Shown here: piece by piece, positions 19,227-64,000 of the stretch
How positions within the stretch are numbered: the stretch's first letter is position 1
Layout of the letters: each line of letters opens with the position of its first letter
From: a virus
IMG/VR virus record: IMGVR_UViG_3300045988_169015
Span: 78,001-142,000 of that record
Direction: 5' to 3' (one strand)
DNA: 64,000 bases
Translations under genes and position numbers: made by a program
Notes under the pieces: model-generated
What the model saw: only the letters and a program-made list of their open reading frames with translations
Told to the model about the DNA's origin: nothing
Databases searched by the model: none

Positions 19227-19255
19227 CTATACTATATATAAAGGAGTAATTAACC

Positions 19256-22544: not shown

Positions 22545-22783
22545 AGGAGAAATGGATAATGATTGGTGCAATTATTGTTATTATTATCATATGTGCATTT
22601 ATAACACTTTGGGTATTCATCCCATTATGTGCAGATGCTGATGCTTGGATATTCAATAAAGATTACTACAAAGACTGCTACAGCAACAAAGTCGCAATTT
22701 TACATGAAATCAAGCAGCTGCGTAAAGAGGTCGCAGACCTCAAAAATCAGACGAACGATGCGGGCTTTTTTAAGAAGGAGTGA
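22541..22783 (+). CDS. small membrane protein
   Basis: ORF track; TM helix IGAIIVIIIICAFITLWVFIPL; an alternative ATG at 22559 has a better SD spacing. Confidence 0.7.
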   Translation: MKEKWIMIGAIIVIIIICAFITLWVFIPLCADADAWIFNKDYYKDCYSNKVAILHEIKQLRKEVADLKNQTNDAGFFKKE

Positions 22784-22788
22784 TAAGA

Positions 22789-23136: not shown

Positions 23137-23151
23137 AGGAGACGATGAATA

Positions 23152-23586: not shown

Positions 23587-23978
23587 TGAATAAATCAAAT
23601 ATGTCCGGCGCTTATGACATATACCGCCAAATGTTCAAGCAGATAATGTGGTGGGATCTGAGTCCTAAAGAAATTGGCAATACATACTTCAAAGACGGCA
23701 CCCACCAAGTTCTTGGAAACGAAGACGGTCATTATCTTTATGATCTCGGCTGGTTAATGGGTGATATAGGGTATCATGGCTGGTCTGGTTCGGCTGCTGA
23801 AAATGAATGTAATATTTACAACAAGGTTGAAACTGCATATTTCTATCTGCTTAAATCTCTTGCCGAAGCTATCGGTTTTGAATATACAGATGAAGACGTA
23901 TGGAAGTACCACTTGAAAGACATCGACACGGATGATATGTTGAAGCTGTATGAAGCCAACAAGCAGAAAAAGGGGTGA
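23586..23978 (+). CDS. hypothetical protein (130 aa)
   Basis: ORF track; start overlaps the previous stop. Confidence 0.75.
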   Translation: MNKSNMSGAYDIYRQMFKQIMWWDLSPKEIGNTYFKDGTHQVLGNEDGHYLYDLGWLMGDIGYHGWSGSAAENECNIYNKVETAYFYLLKSLAEAIGFEYTDEDVWKYHLKDIDTDDMLKLYEANKQKKG

Positions 23979-23983
23979 TGGCA

Positions 23984-24292
23984 ATGACCCCACAAGAAGC
24001 AATAGATACGCTCAAGATTGCTATAGCTGAGGTCGAGTGGAACTATCCACTTGACTATGCTGTGGCAATGGAGATGGCTATTAAAGCACTGAAAAAAGAA
24101 GTACCGGCAGAACCCATAATACAGGAAGAAGAAAATTTTATTCAAGGGTATCTTATTTTTGATAAATATTTCTGCTGTCCTATTTGTAAATATTGTTTTG
24201 GTCTGGTTGAATATGTTGATAAAGCGGGGAAAAAGATAAAATCCGAATGTTGTCCAAAATGCGGTCAAAAACTTGATTGGAGCGACGATTAA
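23984..24292 (+). CDS. hypothetical zinc-ribbon protein
   Basis: CCPICKYC...CCPKCGQKL; ATG 23984 has the best spacing to AAGGGG (track start 23975). Confidence 0.7.
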   Translation: MTPQEAIDTLKIAIAEVEWNYPLDYAVAMEMAIKALKKEVPAEPIIQEEENFIQGYLIFDKYFCCPICKYCFGLVEYVDKAGKKIKSECCPKCGQKLDWSDD

Positions 24293-24293
24293 A

Positions 24294-24527
24294 ATGGCTG
24301 AACATACTGCTTATATATGTGATATCTGCGGCAAGATTATTTTTGATTATGATGAAATAGTTAGACTAAAAGTTAAGATATACCATCAGTCAGCACGCTA
24401 CGACACAAAACTTTTAGATGTTTGCAGTGATTGTGTCAAAAGTTTTGAAAAATGGATAGGTGAAAGAAATGAAAACAGTGAACAAACACGAGTACATAGA
24501 CCGTCGTATGGTGATCTTGACCATTGA
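24294..24527 (+). CDS. hypothetical zinc-ribbon protein (77 aa)
   Basis: CDICGK...CSDC; ATG 24294 (the track starts 21 nt earlier at a non-ATG codon). Confidence 0.6.
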   Translation: MAEHTAYICDICGKIIFDYDEIVRLKVKIYHQSARYDTKLLDVCSDCVKSFEKWIGERNENSEQTRVHRPSYGDLDH

Positions 24528-24789
24528 TAACTGCATTTCCTCGATGACGCCTGAAGAGTATGACGCATGCCGTCTTACTCTTGACGATTTAAAAAATTTC
24601 ATCAAGACGTTTGCCGCCGCTGACGTCGAGCCGGTCATACGCTGCCGAAGGTGTGAATATGCTCGGCAGACACTTGACAAAAGGCTTTGTTGCAAGCGTT
24701 ACGATTATGCAATAGTAGAAAAAGACTACTACTGTGCTTACGGAGAAAAATCAAAGTCTCCTATTGAAATGAAAGGATGGGTATTATGA
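24469..24789 (+). CDS. hypothetical protein (106 aa)
   Basis: ATG 24469 with AGGTGA 6 nt upstream; overlaps the previous ORF by 59 nt. Confidence 0.65.
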   Translation: MKTVNKHEYIDRRMVILTIDNCISSMTPEEYDACRLTLDDLKNFIKTFAAADVEPVIRCRRCEYARQTLDKRLCCKRYDYAIVEKDYYCAYGEKSKSPIEMKGWVL

Positions 24790-24820
24790 CTATAATGGAA
24801 ACATCAAATGGAGGTAATAA

Positions 24821-25117
24821 ATGATGAATGCTGATATTAAAGCACAAATCAAGAGTAAGATACATAAAGTTTGCGTGAATAGATTTCCCGTGTATGACAG
24901 TGACGGAAGAGTTCAACTTTATAGACGACCAGACCTGTCTGAATGGGCAGCGAAAGCAGCAGCCGATGGTGAAAGATACTTCTATGTTGAGGCTGTAAAC
25001 CCTAATATCAATGGTGGTAAGCTTAGACTATGCTGTCCTAAGTACGAGTACAGAGTTAATAGTCTCACGCAGGAAGAATATGATGTTCTGAAAGAACTGT
25101 TAAATGGAGGTAAATAA
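24821..25117 (+). CDS. hypothetical protein (98 aa)
   Basis: ORF track; SD GGAGG. Confidence 0.75.
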   Translation: MMNADIKAQIKSKIHKVCVNRFPVYDSDGRVQLYRRPDLSEWAAKAAADGERYFYVEAVNPNINGGKLRLCCPKYEYRVNSLTQEEYDVLKELLNGGK

Positions 25118-25119
25118 TA

Positions 25120-25626
25120 ATGACGACAGAAGAAAAAATTTCCAAGCTTGAAGCTAACTATGAGGCAATGGCAGCATAGATTGAAAAGCTCAAGGCTGAA
25201 CTTGCTGAAAAGAATGAAACCGTGTGGATACCCCAAAAGGGTGAAAAATATCTGTGTATTTGTAATAATGGCAGAATTGCTTCACAAATTTATAACCCAT
25301 CTTCTATATTTGACATAGAAATAATTGATATGAATGCTAAATTTAAGCCAGTTGCTGGGTGTAAAAAACATCTCGAATGGTATCGTGACAACGTTTTGCG
25401 TGTCCAGAATAAGCTGATGCAGCTCCACGAGTTATTGTGTCCCGATTGTTTTCCTGATTGGGATACAGGTAAAGAAACATGGACTATATATTATGATAAT
25501 ACATATAAGTGTTTTAGTTATACTCTTCAGTGTTCTTGTAATTTCTTTGTTGTTTGTTTTACCAGAGAAGCAGCCGAAAAGGCTTGTGAAATTCTTAACC
25601 GAGAGAAATTTATGATGGAGGAATGA
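25120..25626 (+). CDS. hypothetical protein whose frame carries one in-frame TAG (25177-25179); track ORF 25222..25626 is the downstream part
   Basis: ATG 25120 has GGAGG 9 nt upstream and is in the same frame as 25222..25626. The coiled-coil sequence EEKISKLEANYEAMAA-TAG-IEKLKAELAEKNE is continuous across the stop. The downstream part has no SD of its own. Confidence 0.5.
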
Positions 25627-25630
25627 TACT

Positions 25631-26656
25631 ATGACAATAAATGAAATCAAGTTTGCGCTCCGCAGCTCTGAATACAGCTTCCTGTCGGATAATCCACATC
25701 TTGGCTCTAATATCATCTTGTTGACAGTCGGCGGTTCCCACGCTTACGGAACGGATACGCCCACCAGCGACTTGGATATCCGAGGATGTGCTCTGAATAC
25801 TCCAAGGGAGCTGCTTACCAGCGAAAATTTCGAGCAGTTTGTAAATGAGGAGACCGACACGACGATATATTCGTTCAACAAGTTGGTCTCACTGCTCACT
25901 AATTGTAACCCCAACACCATCGAGATGCTGGGAAACAAGCCAGAGCATTATTTCTATATCTCCCCTATTGGGCAGGAACTTATTGACAACGTTGAGCTGT
26001 TTCTCTCCCAGAAGGCAGCATACAGCTTCGGTGGGTATGCAACCGCTCAGCTTCGTCGCCTTGAAAATAAAGCCAACCGCCTTGTTGGTCAGGAACAGCT
26101 GGAACAGTATATCTATAACACACTGTCTCAAGTTGCCGAAAACTTTGAAGAAAAATATGGTATTCCTGCTGGTCAGCTTCGACTGTATATCGACAAGGCT
26201 GTAAATCCCGATATGGAAACTGAGATTTTCATGGACACTAACTTGACTCACTACCCTATCAGAGACTACGCCGGAATGTGGGATGAAATGAAGAGCATTA
26301 TCAAGTCTTACAATAACATCGGCTGTCGCAATAGCAAGGCTATCGAAAACGGAAGGCTTGGCAAGCATATGATGCACTTGATTCGTCTGTATCTCATGTG
26401 TACTGACATTCTTGAGGGACGAGGCGTAATAACATACCGTGAAAAGGATCGTGACCTGCTGATAGACATCCGCAACGGCAAGTACCTTGATGAAAATCAG
26501 CAGCCCACTTCCGAGTTCTATGAGATGATAGACGAATATGAAAAGAAATATCAGTATGCGAAAGAGCACACTGAACTCCCACCTAAGCCAAACTACAAGG
26601 CAATAAATGATTTCGTTCAGAGCGTCAATGAAAGAGTGATAAAAAATGAAGTATAA
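25631..26656 (+). CDS. RlaP-like (pol-beta superfamily) nucleotidyltransferase
   Basis: LLTVGGSHAYGTDTPTSDLDIRG is the GS..YG...SD.D signature remembered for the RNA-repair-associated RlaP family. Confidence 0.65.
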   Translation: MTINEIKFALRSSEYSFLSDNPHLGSNIILLTVGGSHAYGTDTPTSDLDIRGCALNTPRELLTSENFEQFVNEETDTTIYSFNKLVSLLTNCNPNTIEMLGNKPEHYFYISPIGQELIDNVELFLSQKAAYSFGGYATAQLRRLENKANRLVGQEQLEQYIYNTLSQVAENFEEKYGIPAGQLRLYIDKAVNPDMETEIFMDTNLTHYPIRDYAGMWDEMKSIIKSYNNIGCRNSKAIENGRLGKHMMHLIRLYLMCTDILEGRGVITYREKDRDLLIDIRNGKYLDENQQPTSEFYEMIDEYEKKYQYAKEHTELPPKPNYKAINDFVQSVNERVIKNEV

Positions 26657-34648: not shown

Positions 34649-37435
34649 CTGTCAAAACAAAAGACATATCAGAAGTACATTTTTAAGCTACGTAGTGGCA
34701 GGATATTATCTGCCCCTCGTAAGAGCTTAACTTTGTCTCTGGAAGACGCCAGACGTAATGACGAAATAATTGCTCTGGGAGATCGTGAAGTTATGCGCTT
34801 CATCGATGAAATTAACGGACTCGATGTTCAGGCAACAGAAGAAAAAATCAAAACCATTCGGCGTGAGATACGAAGCATACAAAAAATGCCCAAATCACTG
34901 GCAAATAAACGCCGCATAAAAGCACTATATTCTGAGTTGGATCGGCTTCAATTTAAACCTGATTATGTTGCGGTCATAATGGATAGAATGTCAGATTTTA
35001 AAAAGTTAAATACAGGATTTAAGATTAACGGATTGTCTTATAAGAGATTGATAGGAACGACCAATGGTGTAAAGAAATCTACGATAATATATGCAAGCGA
35101 GATATCTAATCAAGGGAAAATAATACATAAAGAGCTTGCCCGTAGACTTGATAACGACAGAGACCTTAGTATCAAACTGGTTCCTGCAAAATTCGAGGCT
35201 TATAAATCACTTTCATGCAGTACGTCTACTCCGGTTTCGATGCCTAAAGGTATTCTTGTGGTAGATGATGTTTTTACTCATTTTCGTGAAAGGGTAATAA
35301 ATCTTGATGATGTTAACAGTAATGAGCCGGTAATGACTGTTGCGGAGCAGGAAGTGGAGTTAAATACTAATGATGGATACGGACTTATTTGTCCTGCTTT
35401 AGCTGAAAAATGGAGCTCCGAAATGGGAGAGCATTATCTTGTATCTGGGTTCTGTACAAGAAATGCCTTTTTCAAAGGAATGATGTTTACTTTTGATTTT
35501 CATAGTTTTTGCGAAGAATATGGTGGAAACAAGATAATCAAAGATGTATGGGGAAATAAACATAATCTCGACGATATTGAGATGATAACAACTCCATCGA
35601 TGCTTAAACTTTGGGACTCGTATAAGAGTATAGATGATTACATAGAAAAAAGCACGGGTAATCATTACGGGTTTGCGATAACTAAAGCTTTACCTGAGAA
35701 ACTTGAAAGTGAAAGAAATCTTAATTATCAGTTTATTCAAAGTTACGAGCTAAATGATAAACAGATTGAAGAGCTTATCTCCCCTACCGTATCAGAGATT
35801 AAAGACGTTATCAGCGGAGATGTGAATAAGACGATTTTGTTTCTTAAAGGTATGGGCTTAACTGCAGATAATATCAATTCTGTCGAAAATGATTTCGCTA
35901 AGGCAATAATGATAGACCCTCGAATGCTTAAGGACAATTACGTAATAAACAGACTCAACTATATGCTCAAGAAAAAAATTGATGAGGCTAAGATCGGCGT
36001 ACTTAAAATACATGGTAATTATGCGACAATTTCGGGAGATCCTGTTGCTTTATGTCAAAAAACATTCGGTATCGAAACAGATGAGAGTAAGCTGGGGCTG
36101 TTAAATGCCGGGGAAATTTATTCGGAGTATTGGGCGGATCTCGGAGTGAAAGAAATTGTGTGCTTTAGGGCTCCTATGTCGGCGGCAAATAATATAAGAA
36201 GAATGAAGATAGCTGACAACCCTGAAATACGTCGATGGTATAAATATATACACGTTGTAAACGTGTTAAATGCTCACGACTCGTTCTGCCATGCGCTGAA
36301 TGGGTGTGACTTTGATGGAGACGCATTGATAACAACAGATAATAAAGTCCTTCTTGAGAACACAAGAGATTTACCTGCAATAATGTGTGCTCAAAGAAAA
36401 GCAGAAAAAAAGATCATAACCGAAGAATTACTCGTAGAAGCTAATCAAAACAGCTTTGGCGATGAAATAGGTACGACAACTAATCACATAACAGCTATGT
36501 ATGATCTCTTGCCTTTGTTTGATAAGAATAGCGAAGAGTACAAGACGCTGGAATATAGGATAATGTGTGGACAGTTATACCAGCAGAATTGTATAGATCG
36601 TACAAAAGGCATAATCTCCAAACCTATGCCTGATTATTGGTATAATATGTCCAAAAACAAAGTCAAAGATAATAGCACACCTGAAGAAACATTGAAAAAG
36701 AAATTCAACTCTTCTATCTGTGCAAATAAAAAGCCATATTTCACGAATTATATATATCCGGACCAGATGACCGAATACAATCAATATATAAAAAGCACGA
36801 ATCAAAAATGCAGAATGCTTTATCAGATGGATATTGCGGAGTTAGAAGCTCTGCCCGAGAAGACAGAAGAGCAAAACGACTTTCTTCATTGGTATTATTT
36901 GTTACTGCCCGTAAGTGATAATAGTTCGACGATGAATAAAATTTGTCATAAAATAGAACAGGAATTTGATGGATATATATCATCTGTAAAGTCATCGTCT
37001 GATTTCGATTATAGTATAATGAAAAGCGGTGTAGAATATAGCAAATACGATTATACAAAAATCAAACAACTGTATGACGAATACTTAAAAAGAACAGTCG
37101 ATTTTCAAATTAGATCGAAACAGCAAAGATTAGATAAGGAAGAAACATCTATTCAATTTTTAGTGATGAGGGATGAGTTCAAGAGGGAATGTCAAGCTAT
37201 TTGCCCTAATGAATGCGAATTGTGTGATATTATCCTTGATATGTGCTACAAGTCCTCACATTCTAAGCAGTTTGCATGGGAAATATGTGTAGATACGATT
37301 ATTCATAATCTTCTTGCTAAAAATAATAATGAAATCTCATATGTATATAAAGATAAAGACGGTGAGATTATTTATTGTGGAGAAAATTTCAGCGTTGGGA
37401 AAGCAAAGGTGGAGACGAAGAATGATAATACTTAA
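34649..37435 (+). CDS. YonO / RdRP-like single-subunit RNA polymerase (double-psi beta-barrel type)
   Basis: IVCFRAPMSAANNIRRMKI...LNGCDFDGDALITTDN contains the DxDGD catalytic loop in the context typical of YonO and cellular RdRP-like polymerases. The track starts at TTG 34733; the frame is open from 34634 and AAAGGAGG sits 8 nt upstream of CTG 34649. Confidence 0.6.
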   Translation: MSKQKTYQKYIFKLRSGRILSAPRKSLTLSLEDARRNDEIIALGDREVMRFIDEINGLDVQATEEKIKTIRREIRSIQKMPKSLANKRRIKALYSELDRLQFKPDYVAVIMDRMSDFKKLNTGFKINGLSYKRLIGTTNGVKKSTIIYASEISNQGKIIHKELARRLDNDRDLSIKLVPAKFEAYKSLSCSTSTPVSMPKGILVVDDVFTHFRERVINLDDVNSNEPVMTVAEQEVELNTNDGYGLICPALAEKWSSEMGEHYLVSGFCTRNAFFKGMMFTFDFHSFCEEYGGNKIIKDVWGNKHNLDDIEMITTPSMLKLWDSYKSIDDYIEKSTGNHYGFAITKALPEKLESERNLNYQFIQSYELNDKQIEELISPTVSEIKDVISGDVNKTILFLKGMGLTADNINSVENDFAKAIMIDPRMLKDNYVINRLNYMLKKKIDEAKIGVLKIHGNYATISGDPVALCQKTFGIETDESKLGLLNAGEIYSEYWADLGVKEIVCFRAPMSAANNIRRMKIADNPEIRRWYKYIHVVNVLNAHDSFCHALNGCDFDGDALITTDNKVLLENTRDLPAIMCAQRKAEKKIITEELLVEANQNSFGDEIGTTTNHITAMYDLLPLFDKNSEEYKTLEYRIMCGQLYQQNCIDRTKGIISKPMPDYWYNMSKNKVKDNSTPEETLKKKFNSSICANKKPYFTNYIYPDQMTEYNQYIKSTNQKCRMLYQMDIAELEALPEKTEEQNDFLHWYYLLLPVSDNSSTMNKICHKIEQEFDGYISSVKSSSDFDYSIMKSGVEYSKYDYTKIKQLYDEYLKRTVDFQIRSKQQRLDKEETSIQFLVMRDEFKRECQAICPNECELCDIILDMCYKSSHSKQFAWEICVDTIIHNLLAKNNNEISYVYKDKDGEIIYCGENFSVGKAKVETKNDNT

Positions 37436-41213: not shown

Positions 41214-41288
41214 GGTGCGATGGTCAAGTGGTTAAGATGGTGCCCTTTCACGGCGTCGGCTCGGGTTCGAATCCCGATCGCATCCCCA
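41214..41288 (+). tRNA. tRNA-Glu (anticodon UUC), CCA encoded
   Basis: Hand-folded cloverleaf. Acceptor GGTGCGA/TCGCATC; anticodon stem GTGCC/GGCGT with loop CTTTCAC; T arm TCGGG-TTCGAAT-CCCGA; discriminator C, then CCA (41286-41288). Confidence 0.85.
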
Positions 41289-54549: not shown

Positions 54550-55116
54550 ATGAAAAAGTTAAAACTGATTTCGCCGATACCTCCTTCGGTCAATCATTAT
54601 CTCGGATATAGAGCAATTATGAAAAGCGGCAGACCAATGGCTGCAAGCTATGTTACGGCGGATGCTAAAAAATACAAGACGAATTTTACTTTGTATGTAA
54701 AAGATCAAGCTCGGAAACAAGGATATAAAATGTCCGAAAACCCATATCAACATTATTATGTGGACTGTGTGTTTTATTTCGACAGAACAGATCGGGATAG
54801 CAACAATTACATGAAGGTAATGCTTGATGCCATCACTGAAAGTGGCTGTGTCTGGATTGACGACAACGTTGTATGCGAACGAGTACAGGCGGTTTATTAT
54901 GATAAAACCAATCCAAGAATTGAGCTTGAAATATATCCGGTGGACTATATAGGTATTTTTGATAATGCCTCAGCGTTAAAGAATTTTGAAAACCGTTGCG
55001 TCGGGTGTATAAGATATACACGAAATTGTAGTCTGCTGCAGAAAGCAAAAGAAGGCAGAACTCAAGATGAAATTCATGATGGATTGTGTTTGTGCTATAG
55101 AAAGAAAGGAAAATAA
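54550..55116 (+). CDS. rusA: RusA-family Holliday junction resolvase
   Basis: PPSVNHY...; DRDSNNYMKVMLDAITESGCVWIDDNVV matches the RusA catalytic region pattern. Confidence 0.75.
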   Translation: MKKLKLISPIPPSVNHYLGYRAIMKSGRPMAASYVTADAKKYKTNFTLYVKDQARKQGYKMSENPYQHYYVDCVFYFDRTDRDSNNYMKVMLDAITESGCVWIDDNVVCERVQAVYYDKTNPRIELEIYPVDYIGIFDNASALKNFENRCVGCIRYTRNCSLLQKAKEGRTQDEIHDGLCLCYRKKGK

Positions 55117-56127: not shown

Positions 56128-56955
56128 ATGGATTACAAAGGTTATACAGAATATACTTTTGCAAACGATGTCGAAATGGCAAATTTTTACGAGAATATGG
56201 CAGAAAATTCTTTAGGCTTAATGGTTAACGAATATTGTTTATTGTATTCTCACGATGGAGTTTTGGTTGACAAAATTAAATGGGACGGTATTAAGAATAT
56301 TGCTGTTACATATAAAGCCATCAATAATGATTGGTTTTCAAAAATTAAACCGATCAACATAGAACAAGAACTTGCCTTTGATATGCTTCAAGATAAAAAT
56401 ACAACAATTAAATTAGTTACTGGAAGGATGGGCAGCGGTAAAACATACTTAACTGTTTGTCATGCTCTGCAGGCATTAAAACAAAATAAATTTGACAAGA
56501 TTATTTACTTGAGGAATAACGTCTCGGTCAAAGATGTCCCTGAAATAGGATATCTCCCCGGTACAGAATTGGAGAAAATTTGTAATTTTGCTCTTCCTGT
56601 TGCTGATGCGCTTGGTGGTAAAGATGGTTTGAATATTCTTATGATGCAAGGGAAACTTGAAATTGTGCCTTTAGGTTTTATAAGAGGTAGGGACTTCAAG
56701 AACTCTGCTATTATTGTATCGGAAGCCGAAAACCTCACGGCCCAGCACGTTCAGCTTATTATAGGACGTGTCGGCGAAGGTTCTACGCTTTATTTTGATG
56801 GAGATATCAAGCAGGTTGATAAGAAGATTTTTGAAACCAATAACGGAATTACAAAGGCTATAGATGTTTTAAAGGGCAACAGACTTTTTGGATATGTTCA
56901 GCTGCAGAAAACAGAACGTAGTGAAACCGCTGCGCTTGCAGATCTTTTTGATTGA
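56128..56955 (+). CDS. phoH: PhoH-like ATPase
   Basis: VTGRMGSGKTYL Walker A, IIVSEAENL, GYLPG pattern; ATG 56128 (track GTG 56119). Confidence 0.75.
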   Translation: MDYKGYTEYTFANDVEMANFYENMAENSLGLMVNEYCLLYSHDGVLVDKIKWDGIKNIAVTYKAINNDWFSKIKPINIEQELAFDMLQDKNTTIKLVTGRMGSGKTYLTVCHALQALKQNKFDKIIYLRNNVSVKDVPEIGYLPGTELEKICNFALPVADALGGKDGLNILMMQGKLEIVPLGFIRGRDFKNSAIIVSEAENLTAQHVQLIIGRVGEGSTLYFDGDIKQVDKKIFETNNGITKAIDVLKGNRLFGYVQLQKTERSETAALADLFD

Positions 56956-56977: not shown

Positions 56978-57220
56978 ATGATAAAAACTAAAATGACTTT
57001 ACATAACGACATAACAGGAAGAAAAGCAGCTAACTTTGTTCATGGAGTTACAAGCAAACCTTACAATATATGGATTTATAAGAACGACAGAATGATAAAC
57101 GCCAAAAGCATTCTGGGATTACTTTCGCTGAATTTACAGAGTGGAGATGAAGTTGAAGTACAAATTAGTTGCGACAACGAGAATGAGCTTTCAATTGTAT
57201 GTAACGAAATTAATAATTAA
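56978..57220 (+). CDS. HPr/Crh-like phosphocarrier-fold protein lacking the His15 equivalent
   Basis: NAKSILGLLSLNLQSGDEVEV matches the HPr Ser46 region (NLKSIMGVMSLG). The IHARPA active-site segment is ITGRKA here. Confidence 0.6.
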   Translation: MIKTKMTLHNDITGRKAANFVHGVTSKPYNIWIYKNDRMINAKSILGLLSLNLQSGDEVEVQISCDNENELSIVCNEINN

Positions 57221-57259: not shown

Positions 57260-60200
57260 ATGGCAGGAAATATGCTTATGTTAGATGTCGGCATAAATTC
57301 TAAGAGTGCCGAAGATGGATTAGAATCTCTTGAAAGGACTCTTGAGAAAATAAGTCAAAAGAATGATAATCTTAAAATAGGAGAGCAGTTGGCTAATGAT
57401 GCAAAACTTGCTCAACAAAGATATAATGATTTAATTCAACTTGTTGAAAAAGCAGAAAGCAAAACCAAACAGGTTTTTGCTATGGCAGGTTTAAAATATG
57501 TTATTGAAGATATAACTGCGCTAAACCAAAAAATTAAAGAGACCGGCGCAGAGATAGATCAAATCGAGCTAAAGTCTATTAAATTCGATGGTAAGGAATT
57601 ATTTGATATAAAAGGTATCGACAAGTCAATAGATAAATTCGCTAAGGAAATTGATAAGTCTGCTAATGATTCTTTGAGCAAAATTTTGAAAACTCAGCTG
57701 GGTGATAAATTCTTTGCGGAGCAGAAAAAGAATTTACAGGATCAACTGGAATACGACATGAAACAGCTTGCTAAGAATTTTTCACAAGATAAGCTTGAAG
57801 CATATATAAACAAATACTTTAAAACGAAAGCATTTTCTGCGGCAAAAAATGGAAGCGACACAATCGCTCTTAATGGCCGTTTCCCTAAAGAAATCGAACA
57901 GTTGCTGAATAATAAAAAGATCTCTGAGCAGCTTAATGCTAACAATATTGATGTTAAAGCGATTTTGCAGCAAAAAGCAAAGGACGTTGCTTATGTTAAG
58001 GATATGAAAGAACAAATAACTAAAGAATTCATAAGTTTCTTAAACAACAATACTGATGCAAACACTTTTGGTAAGAGTTATACCGACTCTGACATTAAGG
58101 CTATGACCAGTGGTTCAAATATTTCTGAAATAACAAATGAAACGCAGAAGTTAAAAGATGAACTTAAAGAGTTAATCGACCTTTATAATAATTTTAATCA
58201 TAACACAGATGAAAACGAAATATATGATACCGTTGCGCAAATAGAAGCTCTCCGAACAGCGTTAAAAAGTTTGGGTGAAGAATCTTCAAAGGTCGGGAAA
58301 ATTGACGATATGGAGATGTATAAAAAGTATCTGAAAACTGTTAAAGATACTCTATCTCTTTCAAGAGATATGAACGAACCGGGTAAGACTGATGATTATA
58401 GCGAAGAATATGCGGCGCATGCACAAGCATTATCATATGACATTGATACGTTAAATGAAGTAAATATGCAGGCAATTATTGATAGTAGCGCTAAAGCTGA
58501 AAATAAAATTTCAACTTTAAAGGAACGCTTGTCTGACATTGATATGCTGATAGCAAAAATAAATAGCTACAATTCTTTAGCTCCGGGATTCGTTGAAGCA
58601 ATATTTAATACGAAAGATATCAATAAGCTGAATGAACAAAGAGAAATTATTATTGCTGGGTTGAAAAAGATGGGGGTTGACATATCAGGCATTGGTTCTA
58701 TTTCAGGAGCTTTAACTGGCGGCAACGATAGCTTGACAAGTGGTACCGGTGACACTCCAAATAGTGATGAAATGCTATCATCTGAAGAAGCTGAAAAACT
58801 TAAGAAAAATTATGCCGATATTACCGCCGAAGTTGAAAAGTATAAGCAGCAGATTACGGAATTGACCGCCAAAATAAAAGAGTATCGCACAACTGCCGAT
58901 CAGCCTGATGATATCAAAAATAAACTTCTAACTACTGAACAGGCTCTTGAATCTGCCAAGCAGAAGATTGATGAACTCAATCAAAAAATAAGTGACTTAA
59001 ATGATAAATTGGAATTCGATTCAATAGTTGGCCCCGATGGTTTTGTGATAAATCAAGAAGATTATGATAATCTTACCTCTGCTCTTGAAAAAGTAAAAGC
59101 AGAGGCACAGAGTGCCAAAGACGAGCTTGAACAACTTAAAGCTACTTCTGTACAAGTAGGCGAAGGAGAACAAGTTGTTAAGGCTGGCAGCCCTGAAACT
59201 ATTAAGGAACTTGGAGAAGCCGTTAAAGCACTTCAGGAAAGAATGAATAAGGCAGAGGAAATTTTGAAAGATATCCCCGAAGGTATGAGTGGGTTAAAAA
59301 GACTTAGCGGACAAATTGAAAAAATGTCAGGGAACTTCAATGAAGATGGCAGTCTGAAAAATCTTGGCACCACTGCAGAGGAATTGGCCGAACAGTTTAA
59401 GCAACTTGAAAATCAATTTGATGCAAAGATAGATAAAAAAATTGCTAAATTTGAAAAGAACTCATATAAAGGGAAGATGTCAAATAAAAAGTTTAATTTG
59501 GCAGGATCACTTAAAGACTTAAAGGTCGGAAACAACAAGCCTCAAAACGATATTGCTGATGATGATCCACAGGAATCAACTGCCAACACTCAAGAACTCT
59601 ATAAGGAAACTGAAGCATATAAAAAATTATCTGAAGCAGTACAAGCTTTTAATGAGCTTACATCTCAAAAAATAGATAAAACCGATTTCGATGCAAGAAT
59701 AAAAAGGCTGCAAGATATGCAGTCTTGTGTCAAGGATATTATTGCTACTGTAGAAAACTACGAGGGTAAAGCTAACGAACTTTCTGCTCTTGTTTTAAAG
59801 AGTAAAAATGGAGACATATCAATTCAGGATAGCACAAAACTTGACGCATTGATGAATAAATTGCAGTCTGGAATCGGCACGAATACTGAAAAGAAAAATC
59901 AAATGGCGCAGGCCAAGGAAGATGCAAAGAAATATGAGGCTGTAATTGATGAATATAATCAGAAATTCCAGAGAATGATTTCGCAGAAAGTAACGTCTGG
60001 AAAGCAATTCAATGTTTTAAAGCAAAACTTAAAGTCGATGTCTAATAGTGTTGATGCTATTATGGAAAAGTATGATACATTTAAAGGTCAAGACTTTTAT
60101 TCATCTGATTTTGCAAACCGTGGAGAGGCTATTCGTGGGAAGATAAAGGACGCTTCTTTAGATTTGAATGAGATTTCTAAATATAAAAATTATGAAGAAG

Positions 60201-63200
60201 ATATATTTAATATCCAAGCAAAATACTCAGAATCTTTGAAGAAGCAGAAGCAAGAGCAGGATGCTATAGCTGAAGCAGCTCGTAAAAGAGCCGAAGCTGA
60301 AAAAGAGGCATCCAATGCAGTTGAGCCAAAAGAGGCACCTGTCCCTGAAAATATATCAGTTGCTGAAAAATCCAGAGAAGAGCAGAAACGTAAAGCTTTA
60401 GAGAGGCAAGCGGCCAATAACAATCAATCAGAAGTTGGATCTCCGTCATCTAATATCTTAGCTTCAGAGGTTGAAAACTTTGATGAAATTGATAAGGCTG
60501 TAACAAATTTAACTCAACACATCAATGAAAAGACCGAATCAATCAAAGCCGAAGCTGAAGAGATGACTGTGGCGTCGGCGTCTGAGGTTGAATCTGTAAC
60601 TTCAATCAGTAATGCTGTTGATGATCTAAAGGCAAAAGTTGAAAAGCCTTTTAAAATCAGTATTGGCAATACTCCCGTTGAAAATAAACCTTCTGAAGAC
60701 ACAACTAACGGCACCTTGACAGAAAGTTATAATGTTCTGAATGAAAATCAGGTTGCCTCTATTCGTGAGCAAATTGTTGCTGCACTCGGAGAAAATAATC
60801 CTATTCCAATTTCTTTCACGCCTAATGTTGAAGGACTAAAAAAGCAAATCGCCGACGAGTTGAAAAAGGTTCCTATTGAAATAACCAATAACAATATTAA
60901 GGAAACTCTGAACATACAGCATTTAAAAGTCGATCCAAAAGCATTTGGTCAGGGCATTAAAAATGTTAAAATCCAATCATTTAAACTAACTAAAGAAGCC
61001 AAGAATGGATTGAAAACTGATCTTGGCGAAGCAATGAAAAACGTTGGATTAAGCTTAGATACAAAACAACTTCAGGCTGATGTTGAGGCCGCCATCACCA
61101 ATGCTCGTGAAAAGGCTGCTCAAAGAGCAGTAAGAGAAGCTCAAAGACAAGAAGAACCGCAAGTTCCTAAGCCGTCTAAATCTCAGCTAAATGAATATGA
61201 CAAGGTTCAAAAGAGCATTGAGGACGCTTATAATGCTGCATCTAAGATGAAAGAGAATGTTTCCGGGGCACTTTCCAATATTTCCAGAGATCTCTCATCA
61301 GAACTTCAAAATACAGTTAACACATTGGGCGAAATAAATCCATTAGAAAATTTTGATGATGCAAATGTTTTGGGAGAATGGTTAAATCAAAATAAAGCTA
61401 TTATTGATAGTTGGAATACTCTTGAGAAAAAAATACAGGACGTTCTCAAGTTAAGCAATAACACAGCAGAAACTTATTCGGCTACAATGTCAAATACAGA
61501 CTTCGTTTCTAAGATGAGTAAGGACTTAGACAAAATAAAGAATAAGTTTAATGACGTATTTAGTGGAGATCAACTCGTAGCTTATAACAGTCTAATAGAA
61601 GCACTTGATAAGAAAATTCAGAATATTAATAGCGGTTCATCGAATTATAATATCGAAAATATTCAAGAAATCATCAATGCAATGAAGGCTTTGAATGAAA
61701 CTACCGATAGGTTTACCAATATCAATAAATCTGTCAATAATCTGGATAAGCTTTTAAATACACTTGAAGCCGCCAAGAAAAACACAGTTAATCGTGGCGG
61801 TCAAGGTGATGAATATTATAATAAGATAACAGATTTAATTGCCCGAATTGAGAAATTAAAAAATGAACAAAAGGATCTGACAACTGGTTCCAATAAGAAA
61901 ATCGGTGAGTCTCTTGGTAAAATAGAATCTATTTCTAAAGAAGTGGATGAGCTCAAGAAAAAAACTTCTGATTTCAAAGGTATGGATAATATTGCCGGTT
62001 CCGCAGAAAAGCTCGGCTCTAAATTTGATGATTTAATCTTTAAAATTCAGGATTTTATAGACAAAAACAGTAGGATCAATCAAGATAGCGGTCTTTCTGC
62101 CGAGTTTAATAAATTAATGATGTCGGTTCAAAATGCTGATAGATCAGCAAAATCATTGAATGAACTTACTGCGAAATTTAATTCTCTGAAATCTGTTGTT
62201 ATGAGCAAGGGCTTGACTGGAAGATCTTTAGGTGACGAACTTAGCTTTATCGCTTCAAAGATTGGGCTCAAAGCAATGATTGGTGGAGCTACGTATCAAG
62301 CATTAAATTATCTTAAACAGATGATTTCTGTAGTCAGAGAACTTGATACCGGGATGACGAATCTTAAACGTGTAAGTGAAGAGACTGAATCTACATATCA
62401 AAAATTTATGACTTCTGCTGCTAATCAAGCTCGTAATCTTGGATCAACTATGCAGCAGGTAATTGATGCAACTACTGATTTTAGCCGTTTGGGCTACAAC
62501 CTCAAAGAAGCTTCTGAGTTGGCTAACAATGCTTTAATGTATTCAAATGTAGGAGATTTGGATATCAATACCGCAACAGATGACATAGTATCATCAATGA
62601 AAGCGTTCAATATTGCTGCCGAAGATAGCATTAAGATCGTTGATACATTTAATACTTTAGGTAACAAATACGCTCTTGCTTCTGCGGATGTAGGACAGGG
62701 TTTAAGAGAGTCGGCATCGGCTTTAGCAACAGCAAACAATACAATGGAAGAATCAGCAGCGATGATTACAGCCATAACAGAAATTACACAGGACAGTGCA
62801 AGTGCGGGCAATGCCTTGAAAACTTTGTCAATGAGGCTTCGTGGAGCATCTTCATCTCTTGAGGCAGCAGGCGAAGATACTGACGGAATGTGTAATTCTG
62901 TTTCTAAATTGCGAGAAAAAATCAAAGGACTTTCTGGCGTAGACATTATGCTTGATGAAGACACGTTTAAATCAACATATCAAATTATGGGCGAAATAGC
63001 CGATAAGTGGGCCGATATGAGTGATATTAACCGTGCAAGCTTACTTGAAACTATTGCAGGCAAGACAAGAGCAAATCAGGTTTCAGCTTTGCTGAATAAC
63101 TGGACCACTGCGTCTTCGGCTCTGGTGGATTCTTTAAATTCAGCGGGTTCTGCATTAGATGAAAGCGCAACATATGTAGATTCTATTGAGGGTCGCATAG

Positions 63201-63556
63201 CACAGCTCAAAGCATCATATCAGAAATTAAGCAACGATGTCATTGATTCTGGTCTTATAAAATTCTTTGTCTCCACAGGAGACGCAATCGTAAGAGCAAC
63301 CGATTCACTTCTGTCATTTAGTCAGATATTCGAAAAAATTGCCCCAGATAGCAGCTGGGCGGAATATTTCGATGAGATCAAAGCTCTTCCCACTATAATT
63401 ACAGCTATCAGTGCCGGACTTTCAATAAAGAATAAGGGTCAAAAAGCTGATGGCATTTTAGGTATTAATATGCCCTTTGTTCAGGTAACTGAGCAAATGC
63501 ACAAACCGGAAAATTGCTGGAAATCACTAACGCCGTTCTACCAAAGCGCAGCCTGA
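57260..63556 (+). CDS. tail tape measure protein (coding part probably ends at 63439, where a group I intron begins)
   Basis: 2098-aa ORF. About 1,600 aa of coiled coil, then a TP901-type tape-measure core pattern (LGSTMQQVIDATTDFSRLGY, ALKTLSMRLRG, RASLLETIAGKTRANQVSALL) and a hydrophobic segment. The last 39 codons read into intron helices. Confidence 0.85.
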   Translation: MAGNMLMLDVGINSKSAEDGLESLERTLEKISQKNDNLKIGEQLANDAKLAQQRYNDLIQLVEKAESKTKQVFAMAGLKYVIEDITALNQKIKETGAEIDQIELKSIKFDGKELFDIKGIDKSIDKFAKEIDKSANDSLSKILKTQLGDKFFAEQKKNLQDQLEYDMKQLAKNFSQDKLEAYINKYFKTKAFSAAKNGSDTIALNGRFPKEIEQLLNNKKISEQLNANNIDVKAILQQKAKDVAYVKDMKEQITKEFISFLNNNTDANTFGKSYTDSDIKAMTSGSNISEITNETQKLKDELKELIDLYNNFNHNTDENEIYDTVAQIEALRTALKSLGEESSKVGKIDDMEMYKKYLKTVKDTLSLSRDMNEPGKTDDYSEEYAAHAQALSYDIDTLNEVNMQAIIDSSAKAENKISTLKERLSDIDMLIAKINSYNSLAPGFVEAIFNTKDINKLNEQREIIIAGLKKMGVDISGIGSISGALTGGNDSLTSGTGDTPNSDEMLSSEEAEKLKKNYADITAEVEKYKQQITELTAKIKEYRTTADQPDDIKNKLLTTEQALESAKQKIDELNQKISDLNDKLEFDSIVGPDGFVINQEDYDNLTSALEKVKAEAQSAKDELEQLKATSVQVGEGEQVVKAGSPETIKELGEAVKALQERMNKAEEILKDIPEGMSGLKRLSGQIEKMSGNFNEDGSLKNLGTTAEELAEQFKQLENQFDAKIDKKIAKFEKNSYKGKMSNKKFNLAGSLKDLKVGNNKPQNDIADDDPQESTANTQELYKETEAYKKLSEAVQAFNELTSQKIDKTDFDARIKRLQDMQSCVKDIIATVENYEGKANELSALVLKSKNGDISIQDSTKLDALMNKLQSGIGTNTEKKNQMAQAKEDAKKYEAVIDEYNQKFQRMISQKVTSGKQFNVLKQNLKSMSNSVDAIMEKYDTFKGQDFYSSDFANRGEAIRGKIKDASLDLNEISKYKNYEEDIFNIQAKYSESLKKQKQEQDAIAEAARKRAEAEKEASNAVEPKEAPVPENISVAEKSREEQKRKALERQAANNNQSEVGSPSSNILASEVENFDEIDKAVTNLTQHINEKTESIKAEAEEMTVASASEVESVTSISNAVDDLKAKVEKPFKISIGNTPVENKPSEDTTNGTLTESYNVLNENQVASIREQIVAALGENNPIPISFTPNVEGLKKQIADELKKVPIEITNNNIKETLNIQHLKVDPKAFGQGIKNVKIQSFKLTKEAKNGLKTDLGEAMKNVGLSLDTKQLQADVEAAITNAREKAAQRAVREAQRQEEPQVPKPSKSQLNEYDKVQKSIEDAYNAASKMKENVSGALSNISRDLSSELQNTVNTLGEINPLENFDDANVLGEWLNQNKAIIDSWNTLEKKIQDVLKLSNNTAETYSATMSNTDFVSKMSKDLDKIKNKFNDVFSGDQLVAYNSLIEALDKKIQNINSGSSNYNIENIQEIINAMKALNETTDRFTNINKSVNNLDKLLNTLEAAKKNTVNRGGQGDEYYNKITDLIARIEKLKNEQKDLTTGSNKKIGESLGKIESISKEVDELKKKTSDFKGMDNIAGSAEKLGSKFDDLIFKIQDFIDKNSRINQDSGLSAEFNKLMMSVQNADRSAKSLNELTAKFNSLKSVVMSKGLTGRSLGDELSFIASKIGLKAMIGGATYQALNYLKQMISVVRELDTGMTNLKRVSEETESTYQKFMTSAANQARNLGSTMQQVIDATTDFSRLGYNLKEASELANNALMYSNVGDLDINTATDDIVSSMKAFNIAAEDSIKIVDTFNTLGNKYALASADVGQGLRESASALATANNTMEESAAMITAITEITQDSASAGNALKTLSMRLRGASSSLEAAGEDTDGMCNSVSKLREKIKGLSGVDIMLDEDTFKSTYQIMGEIADKWADMSDINRASLLETIAGKTRANQVSALLNNWTTASSALVDSLNSAGSALDESATYVDSIEGRIAQLKASYQKLSNDVIDSGLIKFFVSTGDAIVRATDSLLSFSQIFEKIAPDSSWAEYFDEIKALPTIITAISAGLSIKNKGQKADGILGINMPFVQVTEQMHKPENCWKSLTPFYQSAA

Positions 63557-63943
63557 AAAGGTATTCGTCATGGTGAGGAAACTCAGAAAAAACAGAACGA
63601 CTCCCCTATGCCAAAAGCTAACGGGGTTAATAATGTGAAATCAGCAGCCAAGCCGCTAAGTCCATAAGGATAAAAATTGAAGGGTGAGACCTTCTGCGGT
63701 CGGTTCAGAGACTGTAAGTCGGTTGGCAAGTAATCTGTTCGTTGGATACTTGTCTGAGAGACAGTCCAATCTCACTCGATAGAGTGTCCATGCTCAAGTG
63801 TAAAGACACTTTTAGAAGTAGTATGGAGTTATCAACGCTATCTATCAACGTAAAAGATAGAAAAACAAATAACAAGCAAAAACCGCCGTGGTATTCGGCG
63901 GATTTTTTTTTACCATTTATGATTACAATCATTACATTATTTG
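63440..63943 (+). mobile_element. group I self-splicing intron (5' end well supported, 3' end uncertain and may lie beyond the window)
   Basis: P1 AAGGGU/GCCCUU with U63439:G63472; P2 63479-63494 (GUAA loop); P3 63504-08/63720-24; J3/4 AAAA; P4 63514-20/63641-47; P6 63652-56/63696-700; P7 63710-14/63762-66; P8 63725-32/63747-54; P9 63783-88/63805-10. Confidence 0.75.
63878..63911 (+). terminator. terminator-like hairpin (or peripheral intron helix)
   Basis: AAAAA-CCGCCG-tggtatt-CGGCGG-A-T9. Confidence 0.4.
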
Positions 63944-63990
63944 ATATGTGTTATATCATTTTAATATCAATAAAAGAAAGGAATTAATCA

Positions 63991-64000
63991 ATGAGTAAAA
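63991..64000 (+). CDS. start of next gene (partial; intron-encoded or tail gene)
   Basis: ATG 63991 with AAAGAAAGGAA upstream; only 10 nt lie in the window. Confidence 0.3.

What the first reader, a model, noticed from the sequence alone, without database searches (positions are those of the whole stretch)
63434..63943. Group I intron interrupts the tape measure gene near its 3' end
A complete catalytic core can be drawn by hand. P1 has the U:G wobble at U63439 (exon AAGGGU with GCCCUU at 63472-77). P2 has a GUAA tetraloop. The rest comprises P3, J3/4 AAAA, P4, a large P5 extension with two GAAA tetraloops (63552-63558, 63577-63584), P6, P7, P8 and P9. The J6/7-P7-P3' stretch GTTCAGAGACTGTAAGTCGGTTGG closely resembles, from memory, the Tetrahymena core GUUCACAGACUAAAUGUCGGUCGG. 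The stretch GAGAGACAGTCCAATCTCA resembles the cyanobacterial tRNA-Leu intron GAGAGAGUCCAAUUCUCA. The annotated TMP ORF simply reads 39 codons into the intron. The 3' splice site is unresolved. G63943 followed by ATAT would give a 4-bp P10 and add only ICVISF-stop. Alternatively the intron continues past a terminator-like helix (63878-63911) into an ORF starting at 63991, possibly a homing endonuclease, with exon 2 outside the window.
Basis: partly seen in the sequence, partly recalled or inferred. Interest (0 to 1): 0.7.

Follow-up and report, generated by a model that had tools for sequence, protein, structure and literature searches.

The report
Cargo-carrying group I intron in tail gene

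Summary
The ribozyme core is real. Rfam Intron_gpI scores 51.1 bits (gathering 50, E 6e-12) at 63430-63788. On 8 related sequences, 98.9% of 120 drawn pairs hold and 11 show compensatory changes. "Near the 3' end" is wrong: exon 1 is 2,060 codons, and exon 2 (1,778 codons) lies 4.7 kb downstream, outside the window. The source contig was recovered, and an uninterrupted homologue matches both halves. The 3' splice site is defined by an invariant 12-mer, GAUAAC-AGAUU-G. GAUAAC pairs with GUUAUC (63828-33) to close the cargo loop. AGAUU pairs with J7/9 AAUCU (63768-72) as P9.0. The final G is omega-G. A kissing interaction between the P6b loop and a 3' hairpin loop covaries in three lineages. Six cargo versions (1.7-4.5 kb) occur between these modules, mostly on the opposite strand with their own promoter. 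They include a ThsB-type TIR protein, a zeta-toxin-like kinase and DUF2513. No homing endonuclease was found. Exon 2 has no ribosome-binding site. Splicing itself is inferred, not shown. Two terminators lie in the path, and some relatives have C instead of U at the 5' splice site. It is a new variant of a known kind.

The parts
57260..63439 (+). TMP exon 1 (2,060 codons, ends on a codon boundary ...SIKNKG)
   Evidence: ORF list; Pfam PhageMin_Tail at residues 1722-1934, 84.5 bits; tblastn to TMPs of Bacillus and Lactococcus phages
63434..63477 (+). P1: exon AAGGGU (63434-39) paired with the internal guide GCCCUU (63472-77); 5' splice site after U63439 (U:G wobble)
   Evidence: 97.6% of cells paired across relatives. 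The splice-site base is C in 4 related loci
63440..63556 (+). Read-through of the exon 1 frame into the intron (38 codons plus stop). This is what gene callers annotate as the TMP C-terminus
   Evidence: The same tail occurs in relatives P0002 and P0003
63479..63786 (+). Ribozyme core: P2 (63479-94, GUAA loop), P3 (63504-09/63719-24), P4 (63515-20/63641-46), P5 with a branched extension (63524-63638, two GAAA loops), P6/6a/6b (63647-63704), P7 (63708-14/63762-67), P8 (63726-53), J7/9 AAUCU (63768-72), P9 (63773-86)
   Evidence: Rfam hit; RNAalifold; pair counts with 11 compensatory pairs and 0/500 shuffles; coordinates
63684..63689 (+). P6b loop GUGAGA, proposed kissing partner of the loop UCUCAC of the 3' hairpin (L004 20872-77, outside the window)
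   Evidence: Covaries in three lineages: GUGAGA:UCUCAC, AUGAGG:CCUCAU, GAUGAGA:UCUCAUC. Cross-lineage combinations give only 4-5 bp
63768..63772 (+). J7/9 AAUCU, the 5' strand of P9.0. It pairs with AGAUU immediately before omega-G (L004 20899-20903, outside the window)
   Evidence: 5/5 pairs in all 5 complete lineages, with one A-U to G-U change (helix 17)
63787..63827 (+). Post-P9 domain: helix P9a (63787-95/63818-27) enclosing hairpin P9b (63796-63811)
   Evidence: Each has a compensatory A-U to G-C change (helices 19 and 20)
63828..63835 (+). GUUAUCAA, the 5' strand of the helix that closes the cargo loop. It pairs with (UU)GAUAAC at L004 20891-98
   Evidence: Invariant in all loci. Variant L017/L026 diverges immediately after it (helix 21, 71). 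The helix forms in the centroid fold of the mini-intron
63841..63861 (+). Optional hairpin (UCUAUC/GAUAGA); last conserved element of the 5' block
   Evidence: Read from alignment A2: L006 has UCUGUC/GGCAGA. It is absent in L017/L026, so it is dispensable
63883..63911 (.). Bidirectional intrinsic-terminator-like hairpin (CCGCCG...CGGCGG with U-runs on both strands); first element of the cargo in this variant
   Evidence: One-base polymorphism at 63908 against L004
63991..64000 (+). Start of the first cargo ORF (87 aa, hydrophobic segment, no family hit), cut by the window end. The rest of the intron lies beyond the window in L004 coordinates (window position = L004 position + 47259): minus-strand genes at 16990-20802, minus-strand promoter 20851-20823, 3' hairpin 20860-89, 12-mer 20893-20904, exon 2 20905-26241

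Best explanation
This is a bipartite group I intron of 4,724 nt (L004 16181-20904; only its first 561 nt are in the window) in the middle of the tape measure gene of an SPbeta-like phage of gut Clostridia. A complete ribozyme (P1-P9 plus a small post-P9 domain) lies at the 5' end. A short 3' module lies 1.7-4.5 kb away and consists of a hairpin followed by GAUAAC-AGAUU-G. Three RNA contacts bring the 3' module back to the core: a 6-8 bp helix that closes the cargo loop, a 5-bp P9.0 with J7/9 that presents omega-G to the active site, and a loop-loop (kissing) interaction between L6b and the 3' hairpin. Splicing would join ...AAGGGU to AAUAUA..., giving one 3,838-residue TMP (...SIKNKG|NIFQPAS...). 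The loop between the modules is a site of gene turnover. It carries accessory and conflict-type genes, mostly on the opposite strand. A conserved sigma-A-type promoter next to the 3' module would let them be expressed independently of the late operon, for instance in a lysogen, while splicing keeps their presence harmless to the essential gene. I favour cis-splicing from a read-through late transcript, possibly made by the phage's YonO-like RNA polymerase. Shown here: the ribozyme fold, covariation, both conserved modules, cargo turnover, and collinearity of the two exons with an uninterrupted homologue. Inferred: that splicing occurs, that it is in cis, when the cargo is expressed, and what the cargo does.
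For: - Rfam RF00028 scores 51.1 bits, E 5.8e-12.
- 120 pairs in 21 helices are 98.9% paired, against 33-42% when partners are slid. Eleven pairs have compensatory changes, against 0-1. None of 500 shuffles reaches these values.
- The source contig shows a 1,778-codon ORF 4.7 kb downstream.
- The uninterrupted protein P0004 matches the end of exon 1 (E 2e-16) and exon 2 (E 4e-14) in the same order.
- Distant TMPs carry about 2,000 residues after the PhageMin_Tail domain.
- GATAACAGATTG is invariant in all 6 cargo variants and in a chromosomal remnant, although the flanks have diverged.
- Its three parts match the closing helix, P9.0 at J7/9 and omega-G.
- The L6b x 3'-loop pairing covaries in 3 lineages; shuffle P is 0.007-0.02 for each, and cross-lineage pairings are only 4-5 bp.
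- The 3' hairpin stem differs in every lineage but always pairs.
- Exon 2 has no Shine-Dalgarno sequence. Its only start-like codon is the TTG that contains omega-G, and in-frame stops lie 5-33 codons upstream.
- Six different cargo sets lie between identical module boundaries.
- The best promoter match in the insert is the conserved minus-strand TTGACA-17-TATTAT.
- A 900-aa ORF carries the NGCDFDGDA motif in a genome with SPbeta-like synteny. YonO transcribes the SPbeta late genes as one operon and is highly processive (PMC5467207).
Against: - No RNA or protein data were available. No database protein or viral contig spans the predicted exon junction.
- Two plus-strand intrinsic-terminator-like hairpins (L004 16624-42 and 16957-86) and convergent genes lie between the core and exon 2. 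Read-through is assumed.
- In L015, L016, L018, L022 and L025 the base before the 5' splice site is C, which replaces the canonical U:G wobble with C-G. This is described as exceptional among known introns (PMC4227781).
- The closing helix and P9.0 are supported by invariance and position, not by covariation.
- P10 is weak (at most 4 A-U pairs) and shows no covariation.
- RNAalifold prefers to pair GUUAUCA with UGAUGGC (63448-54).
- The Rfam score barely exceeds the gathering threshold and appears only with relaxed filters.
- The protein alignment cannot fix the junction to the residue, because the region around it is variable.
Confidence: 0.65

Rival explanations
1. Natural trans-splicing. 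The late transcript ends at the terminator just after the 5' ribozyme block, and exon 2 with the 3' module is made as a separate RNA. The two RNAs assemble through the closing helix, P9.0 and the kissing loops, and the exons are ligated in trans.
For: A strong bidirectional terminator lies directly after the 5' block in the window variant, and a second plus-strand terminator lies further on. Three inter-module contacts totalling about 17-20 bp exist, more than a simple cis intron needs. The convergent gene layout makes a continuous plus-strand transcript by host RNA polymerase unlikely.
Against: No convincing plus-strand promoter lies upstream of the 3' hairpin; the best matches there are 9 of 12. 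The region is occupied by the outward-facing minus-strand promoter. In L016, L021 and L006 the 5' block is followed by a promoter, not a terminator. A YonO-type polymerase could supply a read-through transcript. To my knowledge, trans-splicing group I introns are known only from organelles.
Confidence: 0.17
2. No exon ligation. The TMP is made as two polypeptides (2,098 aa with the read-through tail, and about 1,779 aa), and the intron is a decaying relic that happens to flank a gene-insertion hotspot.
For: Gene callers annotate it this way. A C at the splice site in several relatives would fit relaxed constraint. Many substitutions in the read-through region are synonymous in the exon 1 frame (my reading). 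No spliced product was found in the databases.
Against: Compensatory changes throughout the ribozyme show purifying selection on the fold. The invariant 12-mer, including codon third positions, and the covarying kissing loops have no explanation without RNA function. Exon 2 lacks a Shine-Dalgarno sequence and any start other than TTG. An uninterrupted homologue shows that the ancestral state was one protein.
Confidence: 0.08
3. The cargo is removed at the DNA level by site-specific excision before late expression, leaving a short conventional intron in replicating phage DNA.
For: GTTATC and GATAAC are short inverted repeats at the cargo boundaries. Developmentally excised elements are known in Firmicutes (own knowledge).
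Against: No recombinase was found in the cargo proteins scanned. The repeats are inverted, not direct. All 13 contigs, including two IMG/VR viral contigs, carry cargo, and no cargo-less version was found.
Confidence: 0.03
4. One reading: the 3' splice site is G63943, followed by a six-residue exon 2 (ICVISF-stop), so the TMP ends here.
Against: Homology between relatives stops at about 63866, so 63943 lies in variable cargo that is absent from L006, L016, L021 and L017. The TMP would lack the roughly 1,800-2,000 residues that follow the PhageMin_Tail domain in homologues. A conserved 3' module exists elsewhere.
Confidence: 0.01

Closest known systems
Group I introns in TMP genes of Bacillus cereus-group prophages (TMP-IVS1/2/3; Tourasse & Kolsto 2008, PMC2504315)
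   Same: A group I intron interrupts the tape measure gene of a temperate Firmicutes phage. Several of those introns also lack a complete homing endonuclease gene.
   Different: Those are compact IA1/IA2 introns. This one has no P7.1/P7.2 between P3' and P8, has a branched P5 extension and tetraloops in L2 and L9 (IC-like by my reading, not formally typed). It also carries 1.7-4.5 kb of unrelated, mostly antisense genes.
IStrons (group I intron fused to an IS200/605 or IS607 element; Tourasse et al. 2014, PMC4227781)
   Same: A chimera of a group I ribozyme and gene cargo that splicing renders harmless to the host gene. (From my own recollection, not checked in the paper: the ribozyme core is at the 5' end, the cargo is in the 3' part, and the 3' splice site lies beyond the cargo.)
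   Different: IStron cargo is a defined transposon (TnpA/TnpB) that provides mobility. Here no transposase or nuclease was found. The cargo is variable, mostly antisense, has its own promoter, and is bridged by a covarying kissing loop.
Phage T4 introns with an ORF looped out of a peripheral helix, e.g. nrdD/sunY with its ORF downstream of the core (own knowledge, not tested here)
   Same: The complete core precedes a looped-out coding region, and the 3' splice site is brought back by P9.0 and P10-type pairings.
   Different: Those introns carry a single sense-strand homing endonuclease ORF of under 1 kb. This one carries up to seven genes, mostly antisense, and no endonuclease.
Giant mitochondrial ND5-717 group I intron of hexacorals (Chi et al. 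2019, PMC6545197)
   Same: A group I intron that harbours many unrelated functional genes in a peripheral loop.
   Different: [quoted passage not shown] Here the cargo is in a post-P9 loop, in a phage, and antisense.
Accessory-gene (moron/defence) hotspots of temperate phages (general concept, own knowledge)
   Same: A variable set of self-promoted accessory genes (TIR protein, toxin-like kinase, etc.) lies between conserved flanks and is exchanged between close relatives.
   Different: Known hotspots lie between genes or operons. Here the conserved flanks are the two halves of a ribozyme inside an essential structural gene.

Membership tests
Group I intron (Rfam RF00028) | Covariance-model score at or above the curated gathering score | tested here: met
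   51.1 bits against 50, full-length model, E 5.8e-12. Found only with relaxed filters on an 801-nt slice; missed
Group I intron (Rfam RF00028) | Conserved core helices P3-P9 including the P3/P7 pseudoknot, maintained in evolution | tested here: met
   98.9% of cells paired, 11 compensatory pairs, 0/500 shuffles. P3, P4 and P7 are invariant, so they are uninformative but intact
Group I intron (Rfam RF00028) | P1 formed by the 5' exon and the internal guide sequence, with a U:G wobble at the 5' splice site | tested here: met
   In the window: AAGGGU/GCCCUU with U63439:G63472. Caveat: C-G in L015, L016, L018, L022 and L025; C is 'exceptional' per PMC4227781
Group I intron (Rfam RF00028) | Terminal omega-G at the 3' splice site, positioned by P9.0 and/or P10 | tested here: met
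   An invariant G (L004 20904) is preceded by AGAUU, complementary to J7/9 AAUCU, in all 5 complete lineages. P10 is weak. The site is outside the window
Group I intron (Rfam RF00028) | Exons are collinear with an uninterrupted homologue | tested here: met
   P0004 matches both exons in order. The junction is not resolved to the residue by protein alignment
Group I intron (Rfam RF00028) | Guanosine-dependent self-splicing and exon ligation | not testable with these tools
   No RNA data. No spliced junction in the protein or viral databases
Mobile group I intron with a homing endonuclease | Intron-encoded LAGLIDADG, GIY-YIG, HNH, His-Cys box or PD-(D/E)XK endonuclease | tested here: not met
   No such Pfam, PHROGs, NCBIfam or PADLOC hit in the cargo proteins scanned from L004, L006, L016, L021 and L023. 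The only hit is an 18.9-bit PADLOC 'HEase' match to a membrane protein. The L026 cargo proteins were not scanned
IStron | IS200/605 or IS607 transposase/TnpB genes in the 3' part of the intron | tested here: not met
   No transposase or TnpB domain in any cargo protein scanned
Thoeris defence system (cargo of the L004/window variant) | ThsB TIR-domain protein | tested here: met
   Pfam ThsB_TIR 41.1 bits (cut-off 21.2); PADLOC ThsB1 48.1 bits
Thoeris defence system (cargo of the L004/window variant) | Adjacent ThsA effector (SIR2 or TM with SLOG/Macro) | tested here: not met
   The neighbours are a 193-aa membrane protein and a 649-aa P-loop NTPase with no ThsA hit. It is a TIR-containing candidate system, not canonical Thoeris
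Trans-splicing (split) group I intron | The two intron halves are transcribed as separate RNAs | not testable with these tools
   Terminators lie between the halves, but no clear plus-strand promoter precedes the 3' half

The most novel reading that the evidence does not exclude
The two halves are never on one RNA. This would be a natural bipartite, trans-splicing group I ribozyme in a bacteriophage. It would assemble through the closing helix, P9.0 and the covarying kissing loop across a convergently transcribed defence-gene island. Production of full-length tape measure protein, and hence of tails, would then depend on the meeting of two transcripts.
Probability: 0.17. Interest if true: 0.92.

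Novelty: new variant of a known kind. Interest (0 to 1): 0.75.

Why it matters
- **A new place for accessory genes.** Group I introns in phage tail genes are known, and so are accessory-gene hotspots. What appears to be new is their combination: a ribozyme whose peripheral loop serves as a "safe harbour" for a rapidly exchanged set of self-promoted, antisense accessory and defence-like genes inside an essential structural gene.
- **A role for the intron beyond homing.** If splicing is confirmed, self-splicing RNA would be doing more for the phage than tolerating a homing endonuclease. It would let a temperate phage carry lysogeny-expressed cargo at a position where insertion would otherwise be lethal. 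It would also tie the cargo physically to a gene the phage cannot lose.
- **A natural model for long-range splice-site capture.** The intron recaptures a 3' splice site several kilobases away through three contacts, one with clear covariation.
- **A lesson for annotation.** Gene callers split this TMP into a 2,098-aa and a 1,779-aa protein, and the default Rfam scan misses the intron. Similar cases may be overlooked routinely in metagenomic phage genomes.

Tried and rejected
- **Default Rfam scans.** The gathering scan of the whole window found only a tRNA, and a permissive scan of 5.5 kb also missed the intron. Only the 801-nt slice scored.
- **Megablast of 62400-64000 against phage records.** No match.
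- **L002, the closest annotated-collection relative.** The alignment stops 40 residues before the junction and there is no intron hit. Uninformative.
- **Distant TMPs (phages PK-3 and 949).** They align across the junction, but too weakly to fix it.
- **Exact core pattern in the GTDB species genomes.** No match.
- **Degenerate exon-junction pattern in viral contigs.** No match, so no intron-less close allele or assembled spliced product is known.
- **Cargo-less intron pattern in viral contigs.** No match.
- **P10.** At most 4 A-U pairs, in different registers in different lineages, and no covariation with an internal-guide change in L023. I do not rely on it.
- **Kissing loops in the formal count.** I could not include them in the count of structure pairs because MAFFT puts the loops in different registers. 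I analysed them with my own script instead.
- **Conserved Zn-ribbon ORF.** No family in Pfam above threshold, PHROGs or NCBIfam. Its function is unresolved.
- **Exon 2.** No Pfam domain.
- **Literature.** Searches found no report of phage group I introns with defence or accessory cargo. Absence from this library is not proof of absence.
Full report
**1. The observation**

A default Rfam scan of the 64-kb window reported only a tRNA. When only 63200-64000 was scanned with relaxed filters, RF00028 matched 63430-63788 over the whole model at 51.1 bits (gathering score 50, E 5.8e-12). A 5.5-kb scan again missed it, so detection depends on the filters. The likely reason is the long inserts in L1 and in the P5 extension.

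- P1 AAGGGU/GCCCUU with the U63439:G63472 wobble.
- P2 with a GUAA loop.
- J3/4 AAAA.
- A branched P5 extension with two GAAA loops.
- P6, P7, P8 and P9.

Exon 1 (57260-63439) is exactly 2,060 codons, and the annotated ORF runs 38 more codons into the intron.

**2. Where the intron sits in the gene**

Pfam places the PhageMin_Tail domain at residues 1722-1934 of exon 1. In the TMPs of Bacillus phage PK-3 (3,080 aa) and Lactococcus phage 949 (3,276 aa), that domain is followed by about 2,000 more residues. "Near the 3' end" was therefore unlikely from the start.

**3. Recovering the rest of the gene**

An exact-protein look-up found the source contig twice: L004 (JGI, 142 kb) and L005 (ENA, 107 kb). 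The two are identical over 26 kb, and L004 differs from the window at one base, 63908. Window position equals L004 position plus 47259. The genome is SPbeta-like, with YonD, YonB, YomX, YomW and YomU homologues.

Downstream of the ribozyme lie, in order:
- A bidirectional terminator hairpin.
- An 87-aa plus-strand ORF.
- Four minus-strand genes: a 649-aa P-loop NTPase, a 193-aa membrane protein, a ThsB-type TIR protein and a 150-aa Zn-ribbon protein.
- A 1,778-codon plus-strand ORF.

A single uninterrupted protein from another metagenome, P0004, matches both the end of exon 1 (E 2e-16) and the downstream ORF (E 4e-14), in that order. The two ORFs are therefore halves of one ancestral TMP gene, and a spliced product would be 3,838 residues long.

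**4. Relatives and the 3' splice site**

Pattern and protein searches brought in twelve further loci with the same ribozyme: L006, L015-L023, L025 and L026.

In all of them the 5' block is conserved from exon 1 to about window 63866. One variant (L017/L026) diverges exactly after AGUUAUCAA.

At the other end, the 12-mer GATAACAGATTG is invariant in every locus that reaches it, and in a chromosomal remnant, although its AT-rich flanks have diverged. The motif is fully explained by group I architecture:
- GAUAAC pairs with GUUAUC (63828-33), closing the loop that holds the cargo.
- AGAUU pairs with AAUCU of J7/9 (63768-72), the canonical position of P9.0.
- The last G is omega-G (L004 20904).

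Exon 2 then starts AAUAUA..., in frame with exon 1, giving ...SIKNKG|NIFQPAS....

Just upstream of the 12-mer is a hairpin whose stem sequence differs in every lineage but always pairs. Its loop is complementary to the loop of P6b in the core, and the variable flanking positions covary:

| Lineage | P6b loop | 3'-hairpin loop |
|---|---|---|
| L004 | GUGAGA | UCUCAC |
| L006 | AUGAGG | CCUCAU |
| L023 | GAUGAGA | UCUCAUC |

Mismatched lineage combinations reach only 4-5 bp, and the shuffle P for each lineage is 0.007-0.02.

**5. Formal structure test**

The test used an alignment of eight distinct sequences: five complete cargo-deleted mini-introns plus three loci represented by the 5' block only (A3). 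The full structure has 120 pairs in 21 helices, including the P3/P7 pseudoknot, P9.0 and the closing helix. Results:

| Measure | Observed | Control |
|---|---|---|
| Cells paired | 98.9% | 33-42% (partners slid) |
| Pairs with changes on both sides | 11 | 0-1 (partners slid) |
| Shuffles reaching the observed values | 0 of 500 | n/a |

P9 exists in three compensating versions, and P2, P5a, P6, P6b, P8, P9a and P9b each have at least one compensatory pair. RNAalifold recovers most of these helices on its own. The L004 mini-intron folds with z = -5.66, and the closing helix appears in the centroid structure.

**6. The cargo**

The distance between the two modules is 4,325 nt (L004 and the window), 4,450 (L006), 4,389 (L026), 3,270 (L016/18/22), 2,717 (L021) and 1,727 (L023). 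The gene sets are largely different. L016 is 96% identical to L004 in exon 1 plus the ribozyme, and 91% identical from the Zn-ribbon gene into exon 2, yet it has another gene in place of the NTPase-membrane-TIR segment.

Identifiable cargo:
- A ThsB-type TIR protein.
- A zeta-toxin-like kinase with a choline-binding-repeat protein.
- A DUF2513 protein.
- An aspartyl-protease-like protein.

No homing endonuclease or transposase was found in the cargo proteins scanned. The L026 cargo proteins were not scanned.

The one constant gene is a 150-170-aa Zn-ribbon protein on the minus strand next to the 3' module. It is preceded by a conserved TTGACA-17-TATNAT promoter, the best promoter match in the whole insert.

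**7. Mechanism**

I conclude that the exons are joined at the RNA level. The arguments are:
- The selective maintenance of the ribozyme fold.
- The invariant 12-mer, including codon third positions.
- The covarying inter-module loop pairing.
- The absence of any Shine-Dalgarno sequence or start codon for exon 2 other than the TTG that contains omega-G, with in-frame stops 5-33 codons upstream.

Whether splicing is in cis or in trans cannot be decided here. Two plus-strand terminator-like hairpins and convergent genes stand between the core and exon 2. A 900-aa ORF in the window (34733-37435) carries an NGCDFDGDA motif, which resembles the catalytic NADFDGD motif of multi-subunit RNA polymerases (own knowledge). 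[quoted passage not shown] The paper's discussion names the beta flap as the domain needed for hairpin-dependent termination (PMC5467207). This makes a read-through precursor plausible, but it is an inference.

**8. Evidence that cuts the other way**

- In L015, L016, L018, L022 and L025, the base before the splice site is C (a synonymous GGT to GGC change), which gives C-G instead of the U:G wobble. Tourasse et al. describe C there as exceptional among thousands of introns. These variants may splice poorly, or recognition may be tolerant.
- No protein or viral contig spans the predicted junction.
- The closing helix and P9.0 rest on invariance, not covariation.
- P10 is weak.

**9. Comparison with what is known**

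- Group I introns in TMP genes of Bacillus prophages are documented (PMC2504315), but they are compact IA1/IA2 elements.
- IStrons couple a group I ribozyme to a transposon (PMC4227781).
- The hexacoral ND5-717 intron carries many genes in P8 and is removed by back-splicing (PMC6545197).
- None of these combines a phage structural gene, a post-P9 cargo loop, variable antisense self-promoted accessory genes and no mobility gene.
- Literature searches found no such report.

I rate it a new variant of a known kind.

**10. Host**

A fragment consisting of the Zn-ribbon gene, its promoter, the 3' module and the first 235 residues of exon 2 lies between smpB and cotJABC in many gut metagenome contigs. 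A related fragment of exon 2 is found in Huintestinicola butyrica. This points to gut Clostridia as hosts.

Noticed in passing
window 34733-37435 (+): A 900-aa ORF with no Pfam or NCBIfam hit but carrying the RNA-polymerase-type motif NGCDFDGDA. Given the SPbeta-like synteny, it is probably a YonO-type single-subunit late RNA polymerase.
   Followed up: partly
window 3463-4842 (-): A 459-aa reverse transcriptase (Pfam RVT_1, 76 bits). It gives sub-threshold NCBIfam hits to group II intron RT/maturase (96 bits, cut-off 300) and to antiviral Drt3a (60 bits). Its type is unresolved.
   Followed up: no
window 63448-63454 with 63828-63834: RNAalifold pairs UGAUGGC in the L1 region with GUUAUCA, the same strand that I pair with the distal UGAUAAC. 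This could be a competing or temporary fold that forms before the 3' module is transcribed. One sequence (L006) breaks one of the pairs.
   Followed up: no
window 63908: The only difference between the window and contigs L004/L005 over 16.7 kb is T versus A in the U-run of the terminator hairpin (9 U against UUUUUAUUU). This could change terminator strength.
   Followed up: no
L007-L014 (e.g. L007 8607-10738); L024: A prophage remnant lies between smpB and cotJABC in bacterial contigs. It consists of a 277-aa gene, the Zn-ribbon gene, its promoter, the intron 3' module and 235 residues of TMP exon 2, after which host sequence resumes. A related exon 2 fragment is in Huintestinicola butyrica. 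The left break lies inside the intron cargo.
   Followed up: partly
L004 16984-17030 and L006 3780-3827; L004 16619-16648 and L006 3752-3783 (opposite strand): A 48-nt element (94% identical) and the terminator hairpin recur at the point where plus- and minus-strand cargo genes converge in otherwise unrelated cargos. They look like shared module boundaries.
   Followed up: no
window 56978-57220, 56128-56955 and 54550-55116 (+): Genes for a PTS HPr-like protein, a PhoH-like protein and RusA lie just upstream of the TMP gene, inside the structural block (Pfam hits listed). An HPr homologue is unusual there.
   Followed up: no
window 41214-41288 (+): A phage-encoded tRNA-Glu (anticodon UUC); 57.4 bits in Rfam and confirmed by ARAGORN.
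   Followed up: yes
L004 20350-20802 (-) and its counterparts in all variants: The 150-170-aa protein with two CxxC...CxxC zinc ribbons is the only ORF conserved in every version of the intron. No library gave a significant family hit. Its role (regulator of the cargo, mobility or maintenance factor) is unknown.
   Followed up: partly
L001 4808-5794 and L003 4768-5760: In the distant relatives PK-3 and 949, a site-specific recombinase or integrase gene lies immediately upstream of the giant TMP gene.
   Followed up: no
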